Positions 2,665 to 9,016 of a stretch of 64,000 nucleotides of DNA are shown here, one piece after another. The notes under the pieces are model-generated. The model was not told the origin of the DNA and did no database searches. It saw only the letters and a program-made list of their open reading frames with translations. A program made the position numbers and the translations under genes. Source of the DNA: Gammaproteobacteria bacterium (GTDB lineage Bacteria > Pseudomonadota > Gammaproteobacteria > JABHGC01). Numbering within the stretch: position 1 is the stretch's first letter; each line of letters opens with the position of its first letter. The stretch is taken from the NCBI GenBank assembly GCA_027077805.1, contig JALWTS010000029.1:3792-67791 (forward strand). The letters run 5' to 3'.

Positions 2665-3036
2665 TTATTCAGTGGCAACTTGCACTTGTCTTAAACTGGT
2701 TTCATTGGGACAAAATTCAATATTTTCTAAAAGAACGGTTTTGTTTTTATCTAATTCGGTATCACAACGTTTGTGATTAGGACATTGTTGACAATTCTCC
2801 ATATTTTGCATAATTTTGGTAATGGGCTGTTGATGTAGGTATTCGTCTTGGGTAATACCCAATGCCGATAACATTTTATGTAAACGATAAGCGGTGAGTT
2901 TTATTGCGAAATTTTTACGAAACTGCTGACCTACGCGTATGTTTTTTCTGATAGCAACGGCTAGATATAATGCCGTCAACATGACGAAAGCTCCGAGTAA
3001 TATCATTGCTATAATACTAATAATATCAACAAGCAT
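2665..3036 (-). CDS. Membrane-anchored Cys-motif protein (DUF6455-like)
   Basis: N-terminal TM helix; CQQC-x5-C...FCPN pattern. Confidence 0.6.
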   Translation of the reverse strand: MLVDIISIIAMILLGAFVMLTALYLAVAIRKNIRVGQQFRKNFAIKLTAYRLHKMLSALGITQDEYLHQQPITKIMQNMENCQQCPNHKRCDTELDKNKTVLLENIEFCPNETSLRQVQVATE

Positions 3037-3149
3037 TTGAGAACTCCTTTCCTTGGTTGAGGTTGATTGCGGTTGATTAATGTCAAGTGGCTATCAGGAT
3101 ATAAAAGCTCAAAGCATTTGTCATTGATACAGATCAATAGAGAAATAAT

Positions 3150-5383: not shown

Positions 5384-6112
5384 ATGAATGAACAAGCGTT
5401 TCTAAAACAATACAATATTCATGAATTTGAGGTTCCCCTTACCACCGTCGATGTCGTGATTTTTACCATTCGTTGTCAACAATTGCAAGTATTATTAGTA
5501 AAACGAGCAGCGCATCCTTATAAAAATCAATGGTCATTACCCGGTGGTTTTATTGATCTCGGTCAAGATCAGAGCTTAGAACAAACCGCCTCACGTAAAC
5601 TAAGAGAAAAAACAGGCGTAACCACACCATACTTAGAACAATTGCAAACATTTGGTGATAATCATCGGGATCCAAGAGGATGGGCTGTGACTATTGCTTA
5701 TTTCGCATTAATTGATTCTACTCAAGTCAATCTACAATATGGTGCGGGTGCGGCTGATGTGAAATGGCGTACGATTAAGGACAATACGATTGCAGAGACT
5801 TTGGCATTTGATCACAATACTATTTTACAATCAGCCGTGATGCGTTTACGCAATAAAGTCGAATATACGGCATTGCCTGTACATCTCTTACCTAAAGAAT
5901 TTACTTTCAGTGATTTGCAACAAGTATTTGAAATTGTATTGGGTAGAAAAGTGGATAAAAGTGCCTTTCGTCGTCGCATTAAAGAAGCGGATATTATGGT
6001 AGAAATTCAGGGAGCCAAGCGAGGTGGCAGTAATCGACCCGCACAGTTATATCAAATTAAACAAGAAAATATCACCCATTTTTTTACTAGAAGTCTGATA
6101 GGACCTAGATAA
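5384..6112 (+). CDS. nrtR: NrtR-family Nudix/wHTH transcriptional regulator
   Basis: TVDVVIF, WSLPGGF, YLEQLQTF, RDPRGW, LAFDH; C-terminal wHTH FTFSDLQ...FRRR...RPAQLY. Confidence 0.85.
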   Translation: MNEQAFLKQYNIHEFEVPLTTVDVVIFTIRCQQLQVLLVKRAAHPYKNQWSLPGGFIDLGQDQSLEQTASRKLREKTGVTTPYLEQLQTFGDNHRDPRGWAVTIAYFALIDSTQVNLQYGAGAADVKWRTIKDNTIAETLAFDHNTILQSAVMRLRNKVEYTALPVHLLPKEFTFSDLQQVFEIVLGRKVDKSAFRRRIKEADIMVEIQGAKRGGSNRPAQLYQIKQENITHFFTRSLIGPR

Positions 6113-6289
6113 TGCAAGGACAGAATCGTCATTCATTAGAGAAATGCTGACTAAGATTTTTTCCATGCCGTTTTATGAAAGCGTTATTAAGTCAAGCGAA
6201 CTAGACGATGCAAATATTGAAAAATGTGCCAAGATTTCGTCTATAATTTTTAGACAGCACATTACAACGTTATTAAGGTTGAAATTGAT

Positions 6290-7423
6290 ATGGAAGGTAT
6301 TACTCATTATTTAGATATTATCAAAGCCCTGAAAGTCATGGTGGAAAACAATGGTTCCGATTTATTTTTAACAGTGGATACCCCTCCTTATGTCAAAATT
6401 GAAGGCATCATGCATGCTTTAGGTGAACAGAAATTAACCTCTGATTTGGTTCAAGATATTGCTTATCATTTAATGACGGAAGATCAGATTCCTGTGTTTG
6501 AAAAAGAGCTAGAATTAAATTTTGGTCTCACTGCCCTAGGTTCCGAACGATTTCGGATTAATGTCTTTCATCAACGTGGTGAAATTAGTATGGTAATTCG
6601 TTATATCAAAGGGACTGTCCCTACCATTGAGGAATTAAATGTGCCGAAAGAATTATCTGAAATTGTCATGCACAAACAAGGGATTGTTTTGGTCGTAGGC
6701 GGGACAGGTTCTGGAAAATCGACGACGTTAGCCGCCATGATTGATCATCGTAATCAAAACAAACCCGGTCATATTTTAACCATTGAAGACCCCATTGAAT
6801 ATACCCATCCCTATAAAAGATCCGTGGTGAATCAAAGGGAAGTTGGGGTGGATACGTTTTCTTATGCGACTGCCTTAAAAAGTGCTTTGCGTGAAGCACC
6901 TGATATGATTTTAGTCGGTGAGATTCGTGATACGGATACCATGGAACAAGTGCTACGTTTTGCCAAATCAGGTCATCTGGTCATGTCAACTTTGCATGCC
7001 AATAATAGTGCTCAAACTTTAGATAGGGTTGTGGGTTTCTTCCCTAACGAAGCGAGAGAGCAAATTTTATTAGATTTATCTTTAAGTTTAGTCGCCATTG
7101 TTTGTCAGCGTTTAGTGATCGGAACGGATGGTAAACGGGTTGCGGCCGTTGAGATTTTGCAACCCACGCCTTATATTCGAGAGCTCATTAGCCAAGGTGA
7201 ATCGGATGAAGTAATGAAAGCCATGCGAGATGCGAAAGAACCGGGTATTCAAACCTTTGATCAAGCCTTATATGCCTTGTTTGAAGAAGGTAAAATTGAT
7301 CAACAACAGGCATTAGCCAATGTGGATCCAAACAGTGATTTAGCCTTAAAAATTCGCTTATCGGGTTCGGGGTCTTCGGGGAAATCTGAGGAAGAGGAGG
7401 GTTTTTTTGATTTTGATTTTTAA
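6290..7423 (+). CDS. pilU: PilT/PilU-family type IV pilus retraction ATPase (PilU-like)
   Basis: Walker A GGTGSGKST, TIEDPIEY, ALREAPD, STLHANN. Confidence 0.8.
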   Translation: MEGITHYLDIIKALKVMVENNGSDLFLTVDTPPYVKIEGIMHALGEQKLTSDLVQDIAYHLMTEDQIPVFEKELELNFGLTALGSERFRINVFHQRGEISMVIRYIKGTVPTIEELNVPKELSEIVMHKQGIVLVVGGTGSGKSTTLAAMIDHRNQNKPGHILTIEDPIEYTHPYKRSVVNQREVGVDTFSYATALKSALREAPDMILVGEIRDTDTMEQVLRFAKSGHLVMSTLHANNSAQTLDRVVGFFPNEAREQILLDLSLSLVAIVCQRLVIGTDGKRVAAVEILQPTPYIRELISQGESDEVMKAMRDAKEPGIQTFDQALYALFEEGKIDQQQALANVDPNSDLALKIRLSGSGSSGKSEEEEGFFDFDF

Positions 7424-8295: not shown

Positions 8296-8344
8296 TCGTT
8301 TTTTTGTTACAATGGAAAAAGTAGTATTTTAGCCTATTTTTTGC

Positions 8345-8374
8345 TTGACGATAAACAATTATTTTTGTTATGAT
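8345..8374 (+). promoter_or_regulatory. Sigma70-type promoter of the tRNA cluster
   Basis: TTGACG (8345-8350), 18-bp spacer, TG-extended TATGAT (8369-8374), 12 bp before tRNA-Pro. Confidence 0.65.
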
Positions 8375-8386
8375 ACTCGTCCTTAA

Positions 8387-8463
8387 CGGGGTGTAGCGCA
8401 GCCTGGTAGCGCACCTGCTTTGGGAGCAGGTTGTCGGGGGTTCAAATCCCTCCACCCCGACCA
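8387..8463 (+). tRNA. tRNA-Pro(TGG)
   Basis: 77-nt cloverleaf; anticodon arm CCTGC-TTTGGGA-GCAGG; GTTCAAATC T-loop; encoded CCA. Confidence 0.97.
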
Positions 8464-8470
8464 ATGTTTT

Positions 8471-8762
8471 GCGTCCGTAGCTCAGCTGGATAGAGCATCG
8501 GCCTTCAGTAGGAGCCTTTATAAGAAAGTCAACTTATAAAGTGGACAGTGCTGTATCGGTGAAACCTTAACAGATAAGGCTGATGGTAATACCGAGGAAA
8601 CTTTCACGAGGATCCGTAGAGGCCATACGCACTGAGCCTGAGATGGCTAAGATATGGTCCAGACCACAAAACCTATCGTTGATTAATACGAGGGGTGGCA
8701 GTGAAAACTGTAGCGGTAAGCTAAGCCGAGGGTCACAGGTTCGAATCCTGTCGGACGTGCCA
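8471..8762 (+). tRNA. tRNA-Arg(TCT), intron-containing (exons 8471-8505 and 8721-8762)
   Basis: Joined exons give a 77-nt tRNA with anticodon arm TCGGC-CTTCTAA-GCCGA, T arm ACAGGTTCGAATCCTGT and CCA end. Confidence 0.93.
8506..8720 (+). ncRNA. Group I self-splicing intron (215 nt, no homing endonuclease)
   Basis: Exon ends in U and intron ends in G; P2 8516-8524/8533-8541; P3 CAGTGC 8546-8551/GCACTG 8629-8634; P4 TCGGT/ACCGA; R GTAGAGGCCATA 8616-8627; S AAGATATGGTCC 8649-8660; P8 AGCC/GGCT. Confidence 0.92.
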
Positions 8763-8860
8763 TTTAAAATTTAATGGCAGATATTGAACACATCAATGTT
8801 ACAATAAAGATTTGAAAATTAACCATTAACCATTTCAAATTTTTGAAACTTTTAATCAAT

Positions 8861-8937
8861 GGTGGACGTAGCTCAATAGGTAGAGCGCTGGTTTGTGGTA
8901 CCCGTGGTCGTGGGTTCGATTCCCATCGTCCACCCCA
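8861..8937 (+). tRNA. tRNA-His(GTG)
   Basis: G-1 start, GTG anticodon, GTTCGATTC T-loop, CCA end; one U28-C42 mismatch in the anticodon stem. Confidence 0.95.
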
Positions 8938-8985
8938 TTTGATTTTCTATTGATTATCTCATGATATTTTTAATTTTTCTTAAAG

Positions 8986-9016
8986 TTAGGGCAGTTTCCG
9001 TGTTAAACTGCCCTAA
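8986..9016. terminator. Probable bidirectional intrinsic terminator
   Basis: TTAGGGCAGTTT / AAACTGCCCTAA perfect 12-bp stem between convergent units. Confidence 0.75.

What the first reader, a model, noticed from the sequence alone, without database searches (positions are those of the whole stretch)
8471..8762. Group I intron in the anticodon of tRNA-Arg(UCU), inserted after U34, in a gammaproteobacterium
Seen: the middle gene of the Pro-Arg-His cluster is split by 215 nt (8506-8720). Removing ...GGCCTT|CAGTA...GGTAAG|CTAAGCC... restores a 77-nt tRNA with loop CU-UCU-AA. The insert has the group I core: U before the 5' splice site, terminal G, candidate P1 guide GGAGCC (8511-8516, imperfect), P2, P3, P4, P7 (GGCCA/UGGUC variant of GACUA/UAGUC), P8 and a P9 region, with no endonuclease ORF. 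Established: the classic bacterial tRNA group I introns are in tRNA-Leu(UAA) (34/35 site), tRNA-fMet, Azoarcus tRNA-Ile(CAU) and alphaproteobacterial tRNA-Arg(CCU), the last two after position 36. Inference: Arg(UCU) at 34/35 is a host/site combination I do not recognise. AGA codons are common in this window, so splicing should be essential if this is the only copy. Standard tRNA callers may miss the gene.
Basis: partly seen in the sequence, partly recalled or inferred. Interest (0 to 1): 0.9.

Follow-up and report, generated by a model that had tools for sequence, protein, structure and literature searches.

The report
Group I intron splitting tRNA-Arg(UCU)
The only arginine tRNA gene able to read AGA codons in this bacterium is interrupted in its anticodon by a small self-splicing-type (group I) intron, a real but not unique feature: the same intron family sits at the same spot in dozens of other public bacterial genomes.

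Summary
Window 8471-8762 is a 77-nt tRNA-Arg(UCU) gene split after U34 by 215 nt (8506-8720). Default tRNA callers and Rfam miss it. The insert has a complete compact group I (IC3-like) architecture. On a MAFFT alignment of 30 homologues, 90.9% of cells pair, against 31-42% for slid controls, and P2, P3, P8 and P9 covary. The guide UAG|GAG (8509-8514) pairs with both exon ends (CUU|CUA). No other tRNA-Arg(UCU) is found in the 94%-complete genome, although AGA is 15.6% of Arg codons. The two sister genera carry the same gene uninterrupted.

Rfam RF00028 gives no hit here, even at E<=10. It does score tRNA-Leu(UAA) introns with the same P7 variant at up to 57.9 bits. A model built from the Arg introns scores an RF00028-positive Leu intron at 76.5 bits.

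The novelty claim does not hold. A core-motif scan found 53 of 118 loci with an intron at this same Arg(UCU) 34/35 site, in at least 8 phyla. Of these, 24 carry a ~400-700-nt extra insert, shown in one to be a PD-(D/E)XK endonuclease ORF. Interrupted tRNA-Arg-TCT genes are already in print for Beggiatoaceae. This is a new member of a known kind. Splicing itself is untested.

The parts
8345..8374 (+). sigma-70-like promoter (TTGACG, 18 nt, TATGAT) upstream of the Pro-Arg-His tRNA cluster
   Evidence: 10 of 12 consensus matches. The same scan finds 2.0 such sites on average in shuffles, so this is only a consensus match.
8387..8463 (+). tRNA-Pro(UGG)
8471..8505 (+). tRNA-Arg(UCU) 5' exon (positions 1-34, ends at U34)
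8506..8720 (+). group I intron, 215 nt, no endonuclease ORF; last base G (8720)
   Evidence: (188.3 bits with family model R1, of which it is a training member)
8509..8514 (+). internal guide UAG|GAG. 8512-8514 pairs with exon 8503-8505 (P1, U.G at the splice site). 8509-8511 pairs with 3' exon 8721-8723 (P10).
   Evidence: P1 pairs CG, UA and UG each in 30 of 30; UAG before GAG in 37 of 54
8516..8541 (+). P2 hairpin (8516-8524 with 8533-8541)
   Evidence: 8 of 9 pairs change on both sides, 98.1% of cells paired
8546..8551 (+). P3 5' strand; pairs with 8629-8634
   Evidence: 5 of 6 pairs change on both sides, 97.2% paired
8556..8595 (+). P4 (8556-8561 with 8590-8595) enclosing P5 (8565-8566 / 8585-8586) and P5a (8571-8573 / 8580-8582)
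   Evidence: P4 97.8% paired with 2 of 6 covarying; P5 and P5a 75% and 74%, in a poorly aligned stretch
8596..8615 (+). P6/P6a hairpin. This is where 24 relatives carry a ~400-700-nt insert (endonuclease ORF shown in one, L043).
8621..8625 (+). P7 5' strand GGCCA; pairs with 8655-8659 TGGTC (pseudoknot with P3)
   Evidence: invariant, but the homologues were selected on this motif; these elements lie in the RF00028 columns whose consensus is AGACUA ... UAGUC
8629..8634 (+). P3 3' strand
8635..8648 (+). P8 hairpin (8635-8638 with 8645-8648)
   Evidence: 3 of 4 pairs change on both sides, 100% paired
8655..8659 (+). P7 3' strand TGGTC
8663..8717 (+). P9.0-like closing helix (8663-8667 with 8713-8717; one A.C mismatch in the window) enclosing P9a (8672-8678 / 8689-8693) and P9 (8699-8702 / 8707-8710) with a GAAA loop at 8703-8706
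   Evidence: P9 has 3 of 4 pairs covarying and is 100% paired; the closing helix is 95.3% paired and never covaries; P9a is poorly aligned (36%)
8721..8762 (+). tRNA-Arg(UCU) 3' exon (C35 to the encoded CCA)
8862..8937 (+). tRNA-His(GUG)

Best explanation
Window 8506-8720 is a compact, ORF-less group I intron of the tRNA-intron type (IC3-like). It is inserted between U34 and C35 of the genome's only detectable tRNA-Arg(UCU) gene, which is transcribed within a Pro-Arg-His tRNA cluster.

Inferred mechanism, the standard group I pathway:
- The guide GAG (8512-8514) pairs with anticodon-loop C32-U33-U34 to form P1, with a U.G wobble at the splice site.
- An external guanosine bound in P7 attacks after U34.
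- The terminal G (8720) then enters the same site.
- UAG (8509-8511) holds the 3' exon C35-U36-A37 (P10).
- The exons are ligated, restoring the loop CU-UCU-AA.

A GAAA loop on P9 probably docks into a receptor-like internal loop in P5.

What is shown here: the split gene, the fold supported by covariation, homology to accepted group I introns, the absence of another Arg(UCU) gene from the assembly, and the intron-less state in sister genera.

What is inferred: catalysis, that splicing happens in vivo, and that the intron arrived by horizontal transfer, since relatives carry a homing-endonuclease gene.
For: (1) Split gene. ARAGORN -i finds it. The exons are collinear with uninterrupted genes of G001 and G002, at 71/77 and 67/77 positions.

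(2) Structure, on an unfitted MAFFT alignment of 30 Arg(UCU)-34/35 introns.
- There are 58 pairs, and 90.9% of cells are paired, against 31.4-41.9% when partners are slid by 1-3 columns.
- 33 pairs change on both sides, against 8-15 when slid.
- 0 of 500 shuffles reach the observed covariation score.
- By helix, pairs changing on both sides: P2 8/9, P3 5/6, P8 3/4, P9 3/4.

(3) Thermodynamic folding of the window intron alone recovers P2, P4-P5a, P6, P7, P8, P9a and P9. MFE is -58.3 kcal/mol, z = -2.31, and 3 of 200 shuffles fold as well.

(4) Link to accepted group I introns.
- tRNA-Leu(UAA) introns with the same GGCCA/TGGTC core score 57.9, 42.5 and 35.7 bits with RF00028.
- In the RF00028 alignment of L109 these elements occupy the P7 columns.
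- Model R1, built from 24 Arg introns, scores Leu introns L109 at 106.2 bits and L008 at 76.5 bits. L008 is RF00028-positive at 50.2 bits.

(5) Guide.
- 30 of 30 short Arg-34 introns have a G.U plus 2-bp P1 and a 2-bp P10 guide near the 5' end; 39% of shuffles do.
- UAG precedes GAG in 37 of 54.
- The Arg(UCU) introns at 36/37 carry a different guide (TGGAC) that fits UCU|AA in 10 of 11.

(6) Need for splicing.
- The genome-wide tRNA list has Arg ACG, CCG and CCU but no other UCU.
- R1 finds only this copy in the genome.
- AGA occurs 3684 times, 15.6% of Arg codons, in 1003 long ORFs.

(7) Precedent. [quoted passage not shown]
Against: - RF00028 gives no hit on the window intron at gathering, nor at E<=10 on 361 bases, nor in a whole-genome search. 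It also gives none on 8 of 10 Arg-34 homologues.
- No RNA evidence exists. No RNA run holds this organism. The 8505>8721 joints seen in metagenome contigs stand in DNA runs at 85% likeness, so they are other organisms' intron-less genes.
- The homologues were selected on the P7 motif, and the splice-site parser required U at -1 and G at the intron end. Invariance of P7 and of those two bases is therefore not independent evidence.
- P1 never varies, because the host site is the same. It is compatible with the model but untested by covariation.
- The closing helix has an A.C mismatch in the window.
- The genome is 94% complete in 50 contigs, so a second Arg(UCU) gene could be unassembled.
Confidence: 0.88

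Rival explanations
1. The insert is a decayed group I intron that no longer splices. The gene would then be a tRNA pseudogene, and AGA would be read by a tRNA encoded in the unassembled ~6% of the genome.
For: There is no RF00028 hit. There is no RNA evidence. The closing helix has an A.C mismatch (one search lists 5 of 30 unpaired cells at that pair). The assembly is 94.21% complete.
Against: The window sequence keeps every column that is invariant across the 30 homologues. All helices are intact. The exons are 71/77 identical to a sister genus's gene, and the acceptor-stem differences are compensatory. The same A.C variant occurs in 4 other members.
Confidence: 0.07
2. The element is spliced one base further on, between C35 and U36. 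The sequence allows this, because C stands at both boundaries.
For:: CCTT|C...AAG|C can equally be read CCTTC|A...AGC|T.
Against: That reading puts C before the 5' splice site and C as the last intron base. It also loses the U.G pair seen in 30 of 30 homologues. In 15 of 54 homologues the first intron base is T, so only 34/35 restores the UCU anticodon.
Confidence: 0.02
3. The insertion is an assembly or binning artefact, a chimeric join of a foreign intron into this contig.
For: The genome is a 50-contig draft. The nearest intron relatives by identity are from other phyla.
Against: The exons flank the insert exactly as in 53 independent assemblies. Metagenome contigs match upstream (8300-8413), inside the intron (8548-8698) and downstream (8909-9000) with 0 differences (table 8). 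These runs may be the source sample, and no listed piece spans a junction.
Confidence: 0.02

Closest known systems
[quoted passage not shown]
   Same: It has the same insertion point (after U34), the same 5' exon triplet CUU and the same P1 guide GAG. The compact core is the same, with a GAAA-capped P9. Leu(UAA) members carrying the identical GGCCA/TGGTC P7 exist (L054, L081, L106, L109, L112) and are hit by both RF00028 and R1. The last 23 nt of G004's Leu intron are 96% identical to the window's.
   Different: The host tRNA differs, and so does the P10 part of the guide: UAG for CUA here, against UU for AA there. In the tree, all Arg introns but one (L064) form their own group apart from the Leu introns, with support 99. 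That the classical cyanobacterial intron is at 34/35 is recalled, not taken from a call.
Interrupted tRNA-Arg-TCT genes of Beggiatoaceae (Ca. Maribeggiatoa 'BOGUAY', Ca. Thiomargarita nelsonii)
   Same: The host tRNA is the same, the class is the same, and the intron family is the same. R1 scores L100 (Ca. T. nelsonii) at 168.1 bits. They are reported as putative group I introns in Flood et al. 2016, citing MacGregor et al. 2013 (PMC4853749, passages read).
   Different: In the sequences I examined (L036, L044, L077, L100, L114, L138 and others, 10 pattern loci plus G024), the intron lies after U36, not U34. Its guide is TGGAC instead of AGGAG. The passage read does not state the site. MacGregor 2013 was not held.
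Alphaproteobacterial tRNA-Arg(CCU) intron (Agrobacterium; BbgpI of Bartonella bacilliformis)
   Same: It is a group I intron in the anticodon loop of an arginine tRNA that annotation pipelines miss. [quoted passage not shown]
   Different: The isoacceptor (CCU) differs, and the site differs (flanked by CCT repeats, so after position 36). No sequence comparison was made here.
Azoarcus tRNA-Ile(CAU) intron (IC3 model ribozyme)
   Same: It is about 200 nt, has no ORF and sits in an anticodon loop. P1 is 3 bp, and there are a P9 tetraloop and a P2 hairpin. This resemblance is recalled from knowledge of the family.
   Different: The host and site differ.
Synechocystis tRNA-fMet intron encoding I-Ssp6803I
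   Same: Relatives of the window intron carry an extra insert in P6. In the one tested (L043 5304-5711) it encodes a PD-(D/E)XK endonuclease, Pfam PF11645, 136 bits. That I-Ssp6803I belongs to this Pfam family is recalled.
   Different: The window intron has no ORF. The host tRNA differs.

Membership tests
Group I intron | 5' exon ends in U that forms a U.G wobble with an internal guide (P1) | tested here: met
   U34 (8505) pairs with G 8512. The pair is UG in 30 of 30 aligned homologues. It never varies, so this is consistency rather than covariation.
Group I intron | Last intron nucleotide is G | tested here: met
   G at 8720. All 54 Arg-34 introns have it, but my parser required it.
Group I intron | P3-P7 pseudoknot with P4-P6 and P3-P8 domains | tested here: met
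   P3 has 5/6, P4 2/6 and P8 3/4 pairs with double changes. P7 is 100% paired but invariant, because the set was selected on it. The helices map onto the RF00028 consensus through L109.
Group I intron | Guanosine-binding G-C pair in P7 | tested here: inconclusive
   The G 8621 - C 8659 pair is present and is preceded by an unpaired A (8620), as in the RF00028 consensus AGACUA...UAGUC. Which pair binds G is recalled, not tested.
Group I intron | Match to Rfam RF00028 at or above its gathering score (50 bits) | tested here: not met
   No hit at gathering, at E<=10 on 8440-8800, or genome-wide. Arg-34 relatives reach 25.9 and 23.7 bits in 2 of 10. Leu relatives with the same core reach 57.9, 42.5 and 35.7 bits in 3 of 3.
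Group I intron | Guanosine- and Mg2+-dependent self-splicing | not testable with these tools
   No RNA data for this organism.
IC3 subgroup (tRNA-type group I introns) | Compact core in a tRNA anticodon loop, with short P1, P2, P5a, P9.0 and a tetraloop-capped P9 | tested here: inconclusive
   All these elements are present. The subgroup definition is recalled, and no subgroup-specific model was on hand.
   Window scores 188.3 bits, but it is a training member. Non-training members score as follows: L065 211.2, L076 204.1, L049 186.4, G098 187 and G078 169.9 bits.
tRNA-Arg(UCU) | Cloverleaf with anticodon UCU after removal of the insert | tested here: met
   ARAGORN -i. The structural parse scores 21 of 21 stem pairs. 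Identity to uninterrupted genes is 71/77 and 67/77.

The most novel reading that the evidence does not exclude
The Arg(UCU) introns may be an unrecognised, widely spread subfamily of tRNA group I introns that standard models miss.

They use two alternative insertion sites in the same anticodon loop. The site after U34 goes with guide UAG|GAG, and the site after U36 goes with guide UU|GGA. This suggests that the intron re-targeted itself by a few guide mutations plus reverse splicing.

Related copies sit in Leu(UAA), CAU, Lys(UUU) and Thr tRNAs, and in tRNA genes on predicted viral contigs. Phages would then be a plausible vehicle.
Probability: 0.4. Interest if true: 0.5.

Novelty: new member of a known kind. 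Interest (0 to 1): 0.35.

Why it matters
There are two practical points.
- An essential tRNA gene is invisible to default ARAGORN, to Rfam tRNA and to Rfam Intron_gpI. Genomes with this intron will be annotated as lacking tRNA-Arg(UCU). The motif scan suggests that this affects many MAGs across at least 8 phyla.
- RF00028 has a blind spot for this subfamily. A dedicated model such as R1 recovers it at 150-235 bits.

Biologically, the family gives a clean natural series for studying how group I introns change targets. One core occurs with two sites in one anticodon loop, with several host tRNAs, and with or without a PD-(D/E)XK homing endonuclease. For this genome alone the finding is ordinary: one more sporadically distributed tRNA intron.

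Tried and rejected
**Rfam.** RF00028 on the window at gathering, at E<=10, and genome-wide gave no hit on the tRNA intron. I kept this as a failed membership feature, not as a refutation.

**RNA evidence.**
- The look-up of sequencing runs found no RNA run holding this organism. The best holder is a DNA run with 0.21 of the words; RNA runs hold 0.04-0.06.
- Read laying on X1, X22, X3 and X9 at 85% likeness showed joints 8505>8721. They stand in 2 and 5 DNA contigs and one RNA-library contig of depth 2.27.
- These fit other organisms' uninterrupted tRNA-Arg genes, so they are no evidence of splicing.

**Host assignment.** ARAGORN -i on the 118 loci, and a brute-force splice-and-call, were too noisy, giving many false class II calls. 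I replaced them with a strict cloverleaf parser. Eleven loci stayed unresolved, mostly cut by locus ends. L146 is probably mis-parsed as Leu.

**Phylogeny (46 rows, 226 columns).** AU tests do not reject:
- Arg-34 as one clade (p = 0.32);
- Arg-36 as one clade (p = 0.45);
- the six gammaproteobacterial Arg-34 introns as one clade (p = 0.20).

So neither the direction of the site shift nor a cross-phylum donor is shown. Left out of the tree were introns over 330 nt, L146, and all hosts other than Arg and Leu.

**The 3+2 guide rule in other hosts.** It is met by only 5 of 25 CAU-33 introns and 2 of 6 Leu-34 introns. Either P10 is weak there or my site assignment for those hosts is off. I make no claim on them.

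**Literature.**
- Searches found no paper describing an Arg(UCU) 34/35 intron. Only Flood et al. 2016 mentions interrupted tRNA-Arg-TCT.
- The review PMC3984707 (passages read) names no tRNA hosts in the passages seen.
- The cyanobacterial paper PMC5733544 (passages)-49-nt inserts 'group I introns'. I disregard it.
- Supplements are closed. S4 Fig of PMC7717549 and the supplements of PMC4853749 may hold site details that I could not see.

**Other.** G041 was flagged as unpublished.

Full report
**What is there.**
- Between tRNA-Pro(UGG) (8387-8463) and tRNA-His(GUG) (8862-8937) lie two halves of a tRNA-Arg(UCU) gene. The 5' half is 8471-8505 and the 3' half is 8721-8762. They are separated by 215 nt, 8506-8720.
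- Default ARAGORN and Rfam's tRNA model see only Pro and His.
- The window is G000:C29:3792-67791, in a 2.55-Mb, 37.6% G+C, 50-contig genome rated 94.21% complete.
- The two genomes of the same family, G001 and G002, carry an uninterrupted 77-nt tRNA-Arg(tct), beside tRNA-Pro and tRNA-His respectively.
- The window's exons laid end to end match those genes at 71/77 and 67/77 positions, with no gap at the junction. The differences sit in the acceptor stem and the variable loop.

**Is the insert a group I intron?** Rfam's RF00028 says nothing. It gives no hit at gathering, none at E<=10 on 8440-8800, and none at this place in a whole-genome search, which did find three intron-like matches in the rRNA operon of contig C36. 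I therefore looked for relatives.
- A DNA search of 60 relatives found a homologous 247-nt insert in the Pro-Arg-His cluster of G024. It also found a tRNA-Leu(UAA) intron in G004 whose last 23 nt are 96% identical to the window's. RF00028 scores that Leu intron at 50.2 bits.
- A strict cloverleaf parser, which required U before the intron and G at its end, assigned hosts as in the table below.

| Host and site | Loci of 118 | Notes |
|---|---|---|
| tRNA-Arg(UCU), after U34 | 53 | 29 introns of 206-438 nt, 24 of 629-932 nt |
| tRNA-Arg(UCU), after U36 | 10 | |
| CAU-anticodon tRNA, after U33 | 25 | |
| tRNA-Leu(UAA), after U34 | 11 | one of them doubtful |
| tRNA-Leu(UAA), after U33 | 1 | |
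| Lys/Thr/Asn-type | 7 | |
| Unresolved | 11 | |

By record titles, the Arg-34 loci come from:
- Acidobacteriota;
- Bacteroidota;
- Rhodothermota;
- Chloroflexota;
- Thermodesulfobacteriota, including the complete genome of Desulfonema magnum;
- Campylobacterota;
- Bacillota;
- Alpha- and Gammaproteobacteria.

**Structure.** I derived a helix model from the window sequence. I then counted it on a plain MAFFT alignment of the 30 short Arg-34 introns, which was not fitted to any structure.
- Of 58 pairs, 90.9% of cells are standard pairs. The figure is 31.4-41.9% when the 3' partners are slid by 1-3 columns.
- 33 pairs change on both sides, against 8-15 when slid. No shuffle of 500 reaches the observed covariation score.
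- Pairs with changes on both sides, by helix: P2 8/9, P3 5/6, P4 2/6, P8 3/4, P9 3/4.
- P1 and P7 never vary. For P7 that is by selection, and for P1 it is because all share the host site.
- P5/P5a (about 75%) and P9a (36%) lie in poorly aligned stretches, so they are weakly supported.
- Folding the window intron alone recovers P2, P4-P5a, P6, P7, P8, P9a and P9, with z = -2.31.
- The order P1-P2-P3-P4-P5-P6-P7-P3'-P8-P7'-P9, with the P3/P7 pseudoknot, is the group I plan.

**Link to accepted members.**
- On 15 loci, RF00028 hit 3 of 3 tRNA-Leu(UAA) introns with the same core (57.9, 42.5 and 35.7 bits). It hit 2 of 10 Arg-34 introns (25.9 and 23.7 bits), and neither of the two others.
- In the RF00028 alignment of L109, GGCCA and TGGTC lie in the columns whose consensus is AGACUA ... 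UAGUC, that is, P7.
- A covariance model R1, built from 24 Arg-34 introns, scores the Leu introns L109 at 106.2 and L008 at 76.5 bits. It scores the Arg-36 introns at 153-180 bits and non-training Arg-34 introns at 145-211 bits.

The window intron thus belongs to one homologous family with RF00028-positive tRNA introns. RF00028 is simply insensitive to this branch.

**How it should work.**
- The conserved 5' element UAG|GAG (8509-8514) lies just before P2.
- GAG pairs with C32-U33-U34, with U34.G at the splice site, in 30 of 30 introns.
- The three bases before it are UAG, complementary to C35-U36-A37, in 37 of 54.
- All 30 short Arg-34 introns have a guide meeting a 3+2 rule; 39% of shuffled 5' ends do.
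- The Arg-36 introns have TGGAC instead, which fits U34-C35-U36 | A37-A38, in 10 of 11.

The guide thus changes with the site, as the group I mechanism predicts. The rest is inference from the family's known chemistry: guanosine attack after U34, docking of the terminal G (8720) in P7, and exon ligation restoring CU-UCU-AA. P9 carries a GAAA loop (8703-8706), and P5 has a receptor-like internal loop. That they dock is recalled from model introns, not tested.

**Need for splicing.**
- The tRNA list of the genome has Arg(ACG), Arg(CCG) and Arg(CCU) but no other Arg(UCU). R1 finds no second copy.
- AGA occurs 3684 times in 1003 long ORFs, which is 15.6% of Arg codons.
- No RNA data exist for this organism. 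The joints seen in metagenome contigs are explained by other organisms' uninterrupted genes.

**Distribution and mobility.**
- In a sample of 150 other genomes of the class, 19 have an R1 match at E<=1e-5. Two of them (G098, G078) have an Arg-34 intron and one (G024) an Arg-36 intron. The distribution is sporadic.
- The window's nearest relative by identity is a Desulfobacterales MAG, 81% over 202 columns. Tree resolution is poor, and AU tests reject none of the groupings I tested. Horizontal transfer is likely but its route is not shown.
- The 24 long Arg-34 introns carry a ~400-700-nt extra insert. In the one I read (L043) it lies in P6 and encodes a Pfam PF11645 PD-(D/E)XK endonuclease, 136 bits.
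- The window intron has only a short hairpin there and no ORF. It looks like a non-autonomous copy.

**Novelty.**
- Flood et al. [quoted passage not shown] Maribeggiatoa (citing MacGregor et al. 2013, not held) and in Ca. Thiomargarita nelsonii.
- In the Beggiatoaceae sequences I examined, the site is 36/37.
- I found no paper on the 34/35 site in Arg(UCU). The library omits most subscription journals.
- The sequences themselves are plentiful in public genomes.

I therefore rate this a new member of a known kind. It has practical value for annotation, and a modestly interesting family-level story.

Noticed in passing
G000:C36:2439-2730, 2749-3056, 6097-6334 (own genome, outside the window): The 23S rRNA gene downstream of tRNA-Ile/tRNA-Ala is interrupted. 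RF00028 gives matches of 68, 34.8 and 33.2 bits. The LSU model breaks near C36:2438 and resumes at about C36:4250 at model position 2046. A further ~1.6 kb of extra sequence lies before the 5S gene. The genome thus carries several group I introns.
   Followed up: partly
L043:5304-5711 (Pyrinomonadaceae MAG) and 23 other long Arg-34 introns: 24 Arg(UCU)-34/35 introns of 629-932 nt carry an extra insert. In L043 it lies in P6 and encodes a PD-(D/E)XK endonuclease (PF11645, 136 bits). The family model hits the two intron halves on either side of the insert. Only L043's ORF was tested.
   Followed up: partly
L007 (G024), L036, L044, L063, L077, L098, L099, L100, L114, L115, L138: A second site exists in the same tRNA. 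Homologous introns after U36 of tRNA-Arg(UCU), mostly in Beggiatoaceae, carry the guide TGGAC instead of AGGAG. Ten of them form a clade with support 99.
   Followed up: partly
L038, L039, L053, L056, L062 and 20 more: 25 loci, mostly Verrucomicrobiota (Opitutaceae) and Planctomycetota including Ca. Kuenenia, have the same intron core in a CAU-anticodon tRNA, apparently after U33. Only 5 of 25 meet my simple guide rule, so the site needs checking.
   Followed up: no
L191-L195 (IMG/VR contigs): 5 predicted viral contigs hold the core motif. Two have it in tRNA-Arg(UCU) after U34 (L191, L195; one contig is 250 kb) and two in tRNA-Leu(UAA) (L192, L193; L193 lies in a tRNA array). A 2014 review passage says that phage introns were then known only in protein genes. 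The viral calls may include host DNA.
   Followed up: partly
L064:423-651 (Acetobacteraceae MAG): This Arg(UCU)-34/35 intron groups with alphaproteobacterial tRNA-Leu(UAA) introns (support 96-99), not with the other Arg introns. That hints at an independent Leu-to-Arg host switch.
   Followed up: no
L048, L061, L107, L131, L144, L153, L119: The same intron core occurs in tRNAs read as Lys(UUU), Thr(UGU/GGU) or Asn(GUU). The host or site is ambiguous by one base in several.
   Followed up: no
window 8471 and 8758-8759: The window's tRNA-Arg has a G1.U72 wobble and G73. G001 and G002 have a Watson-Crick 1-72 pair and A73.
   Followed up: no
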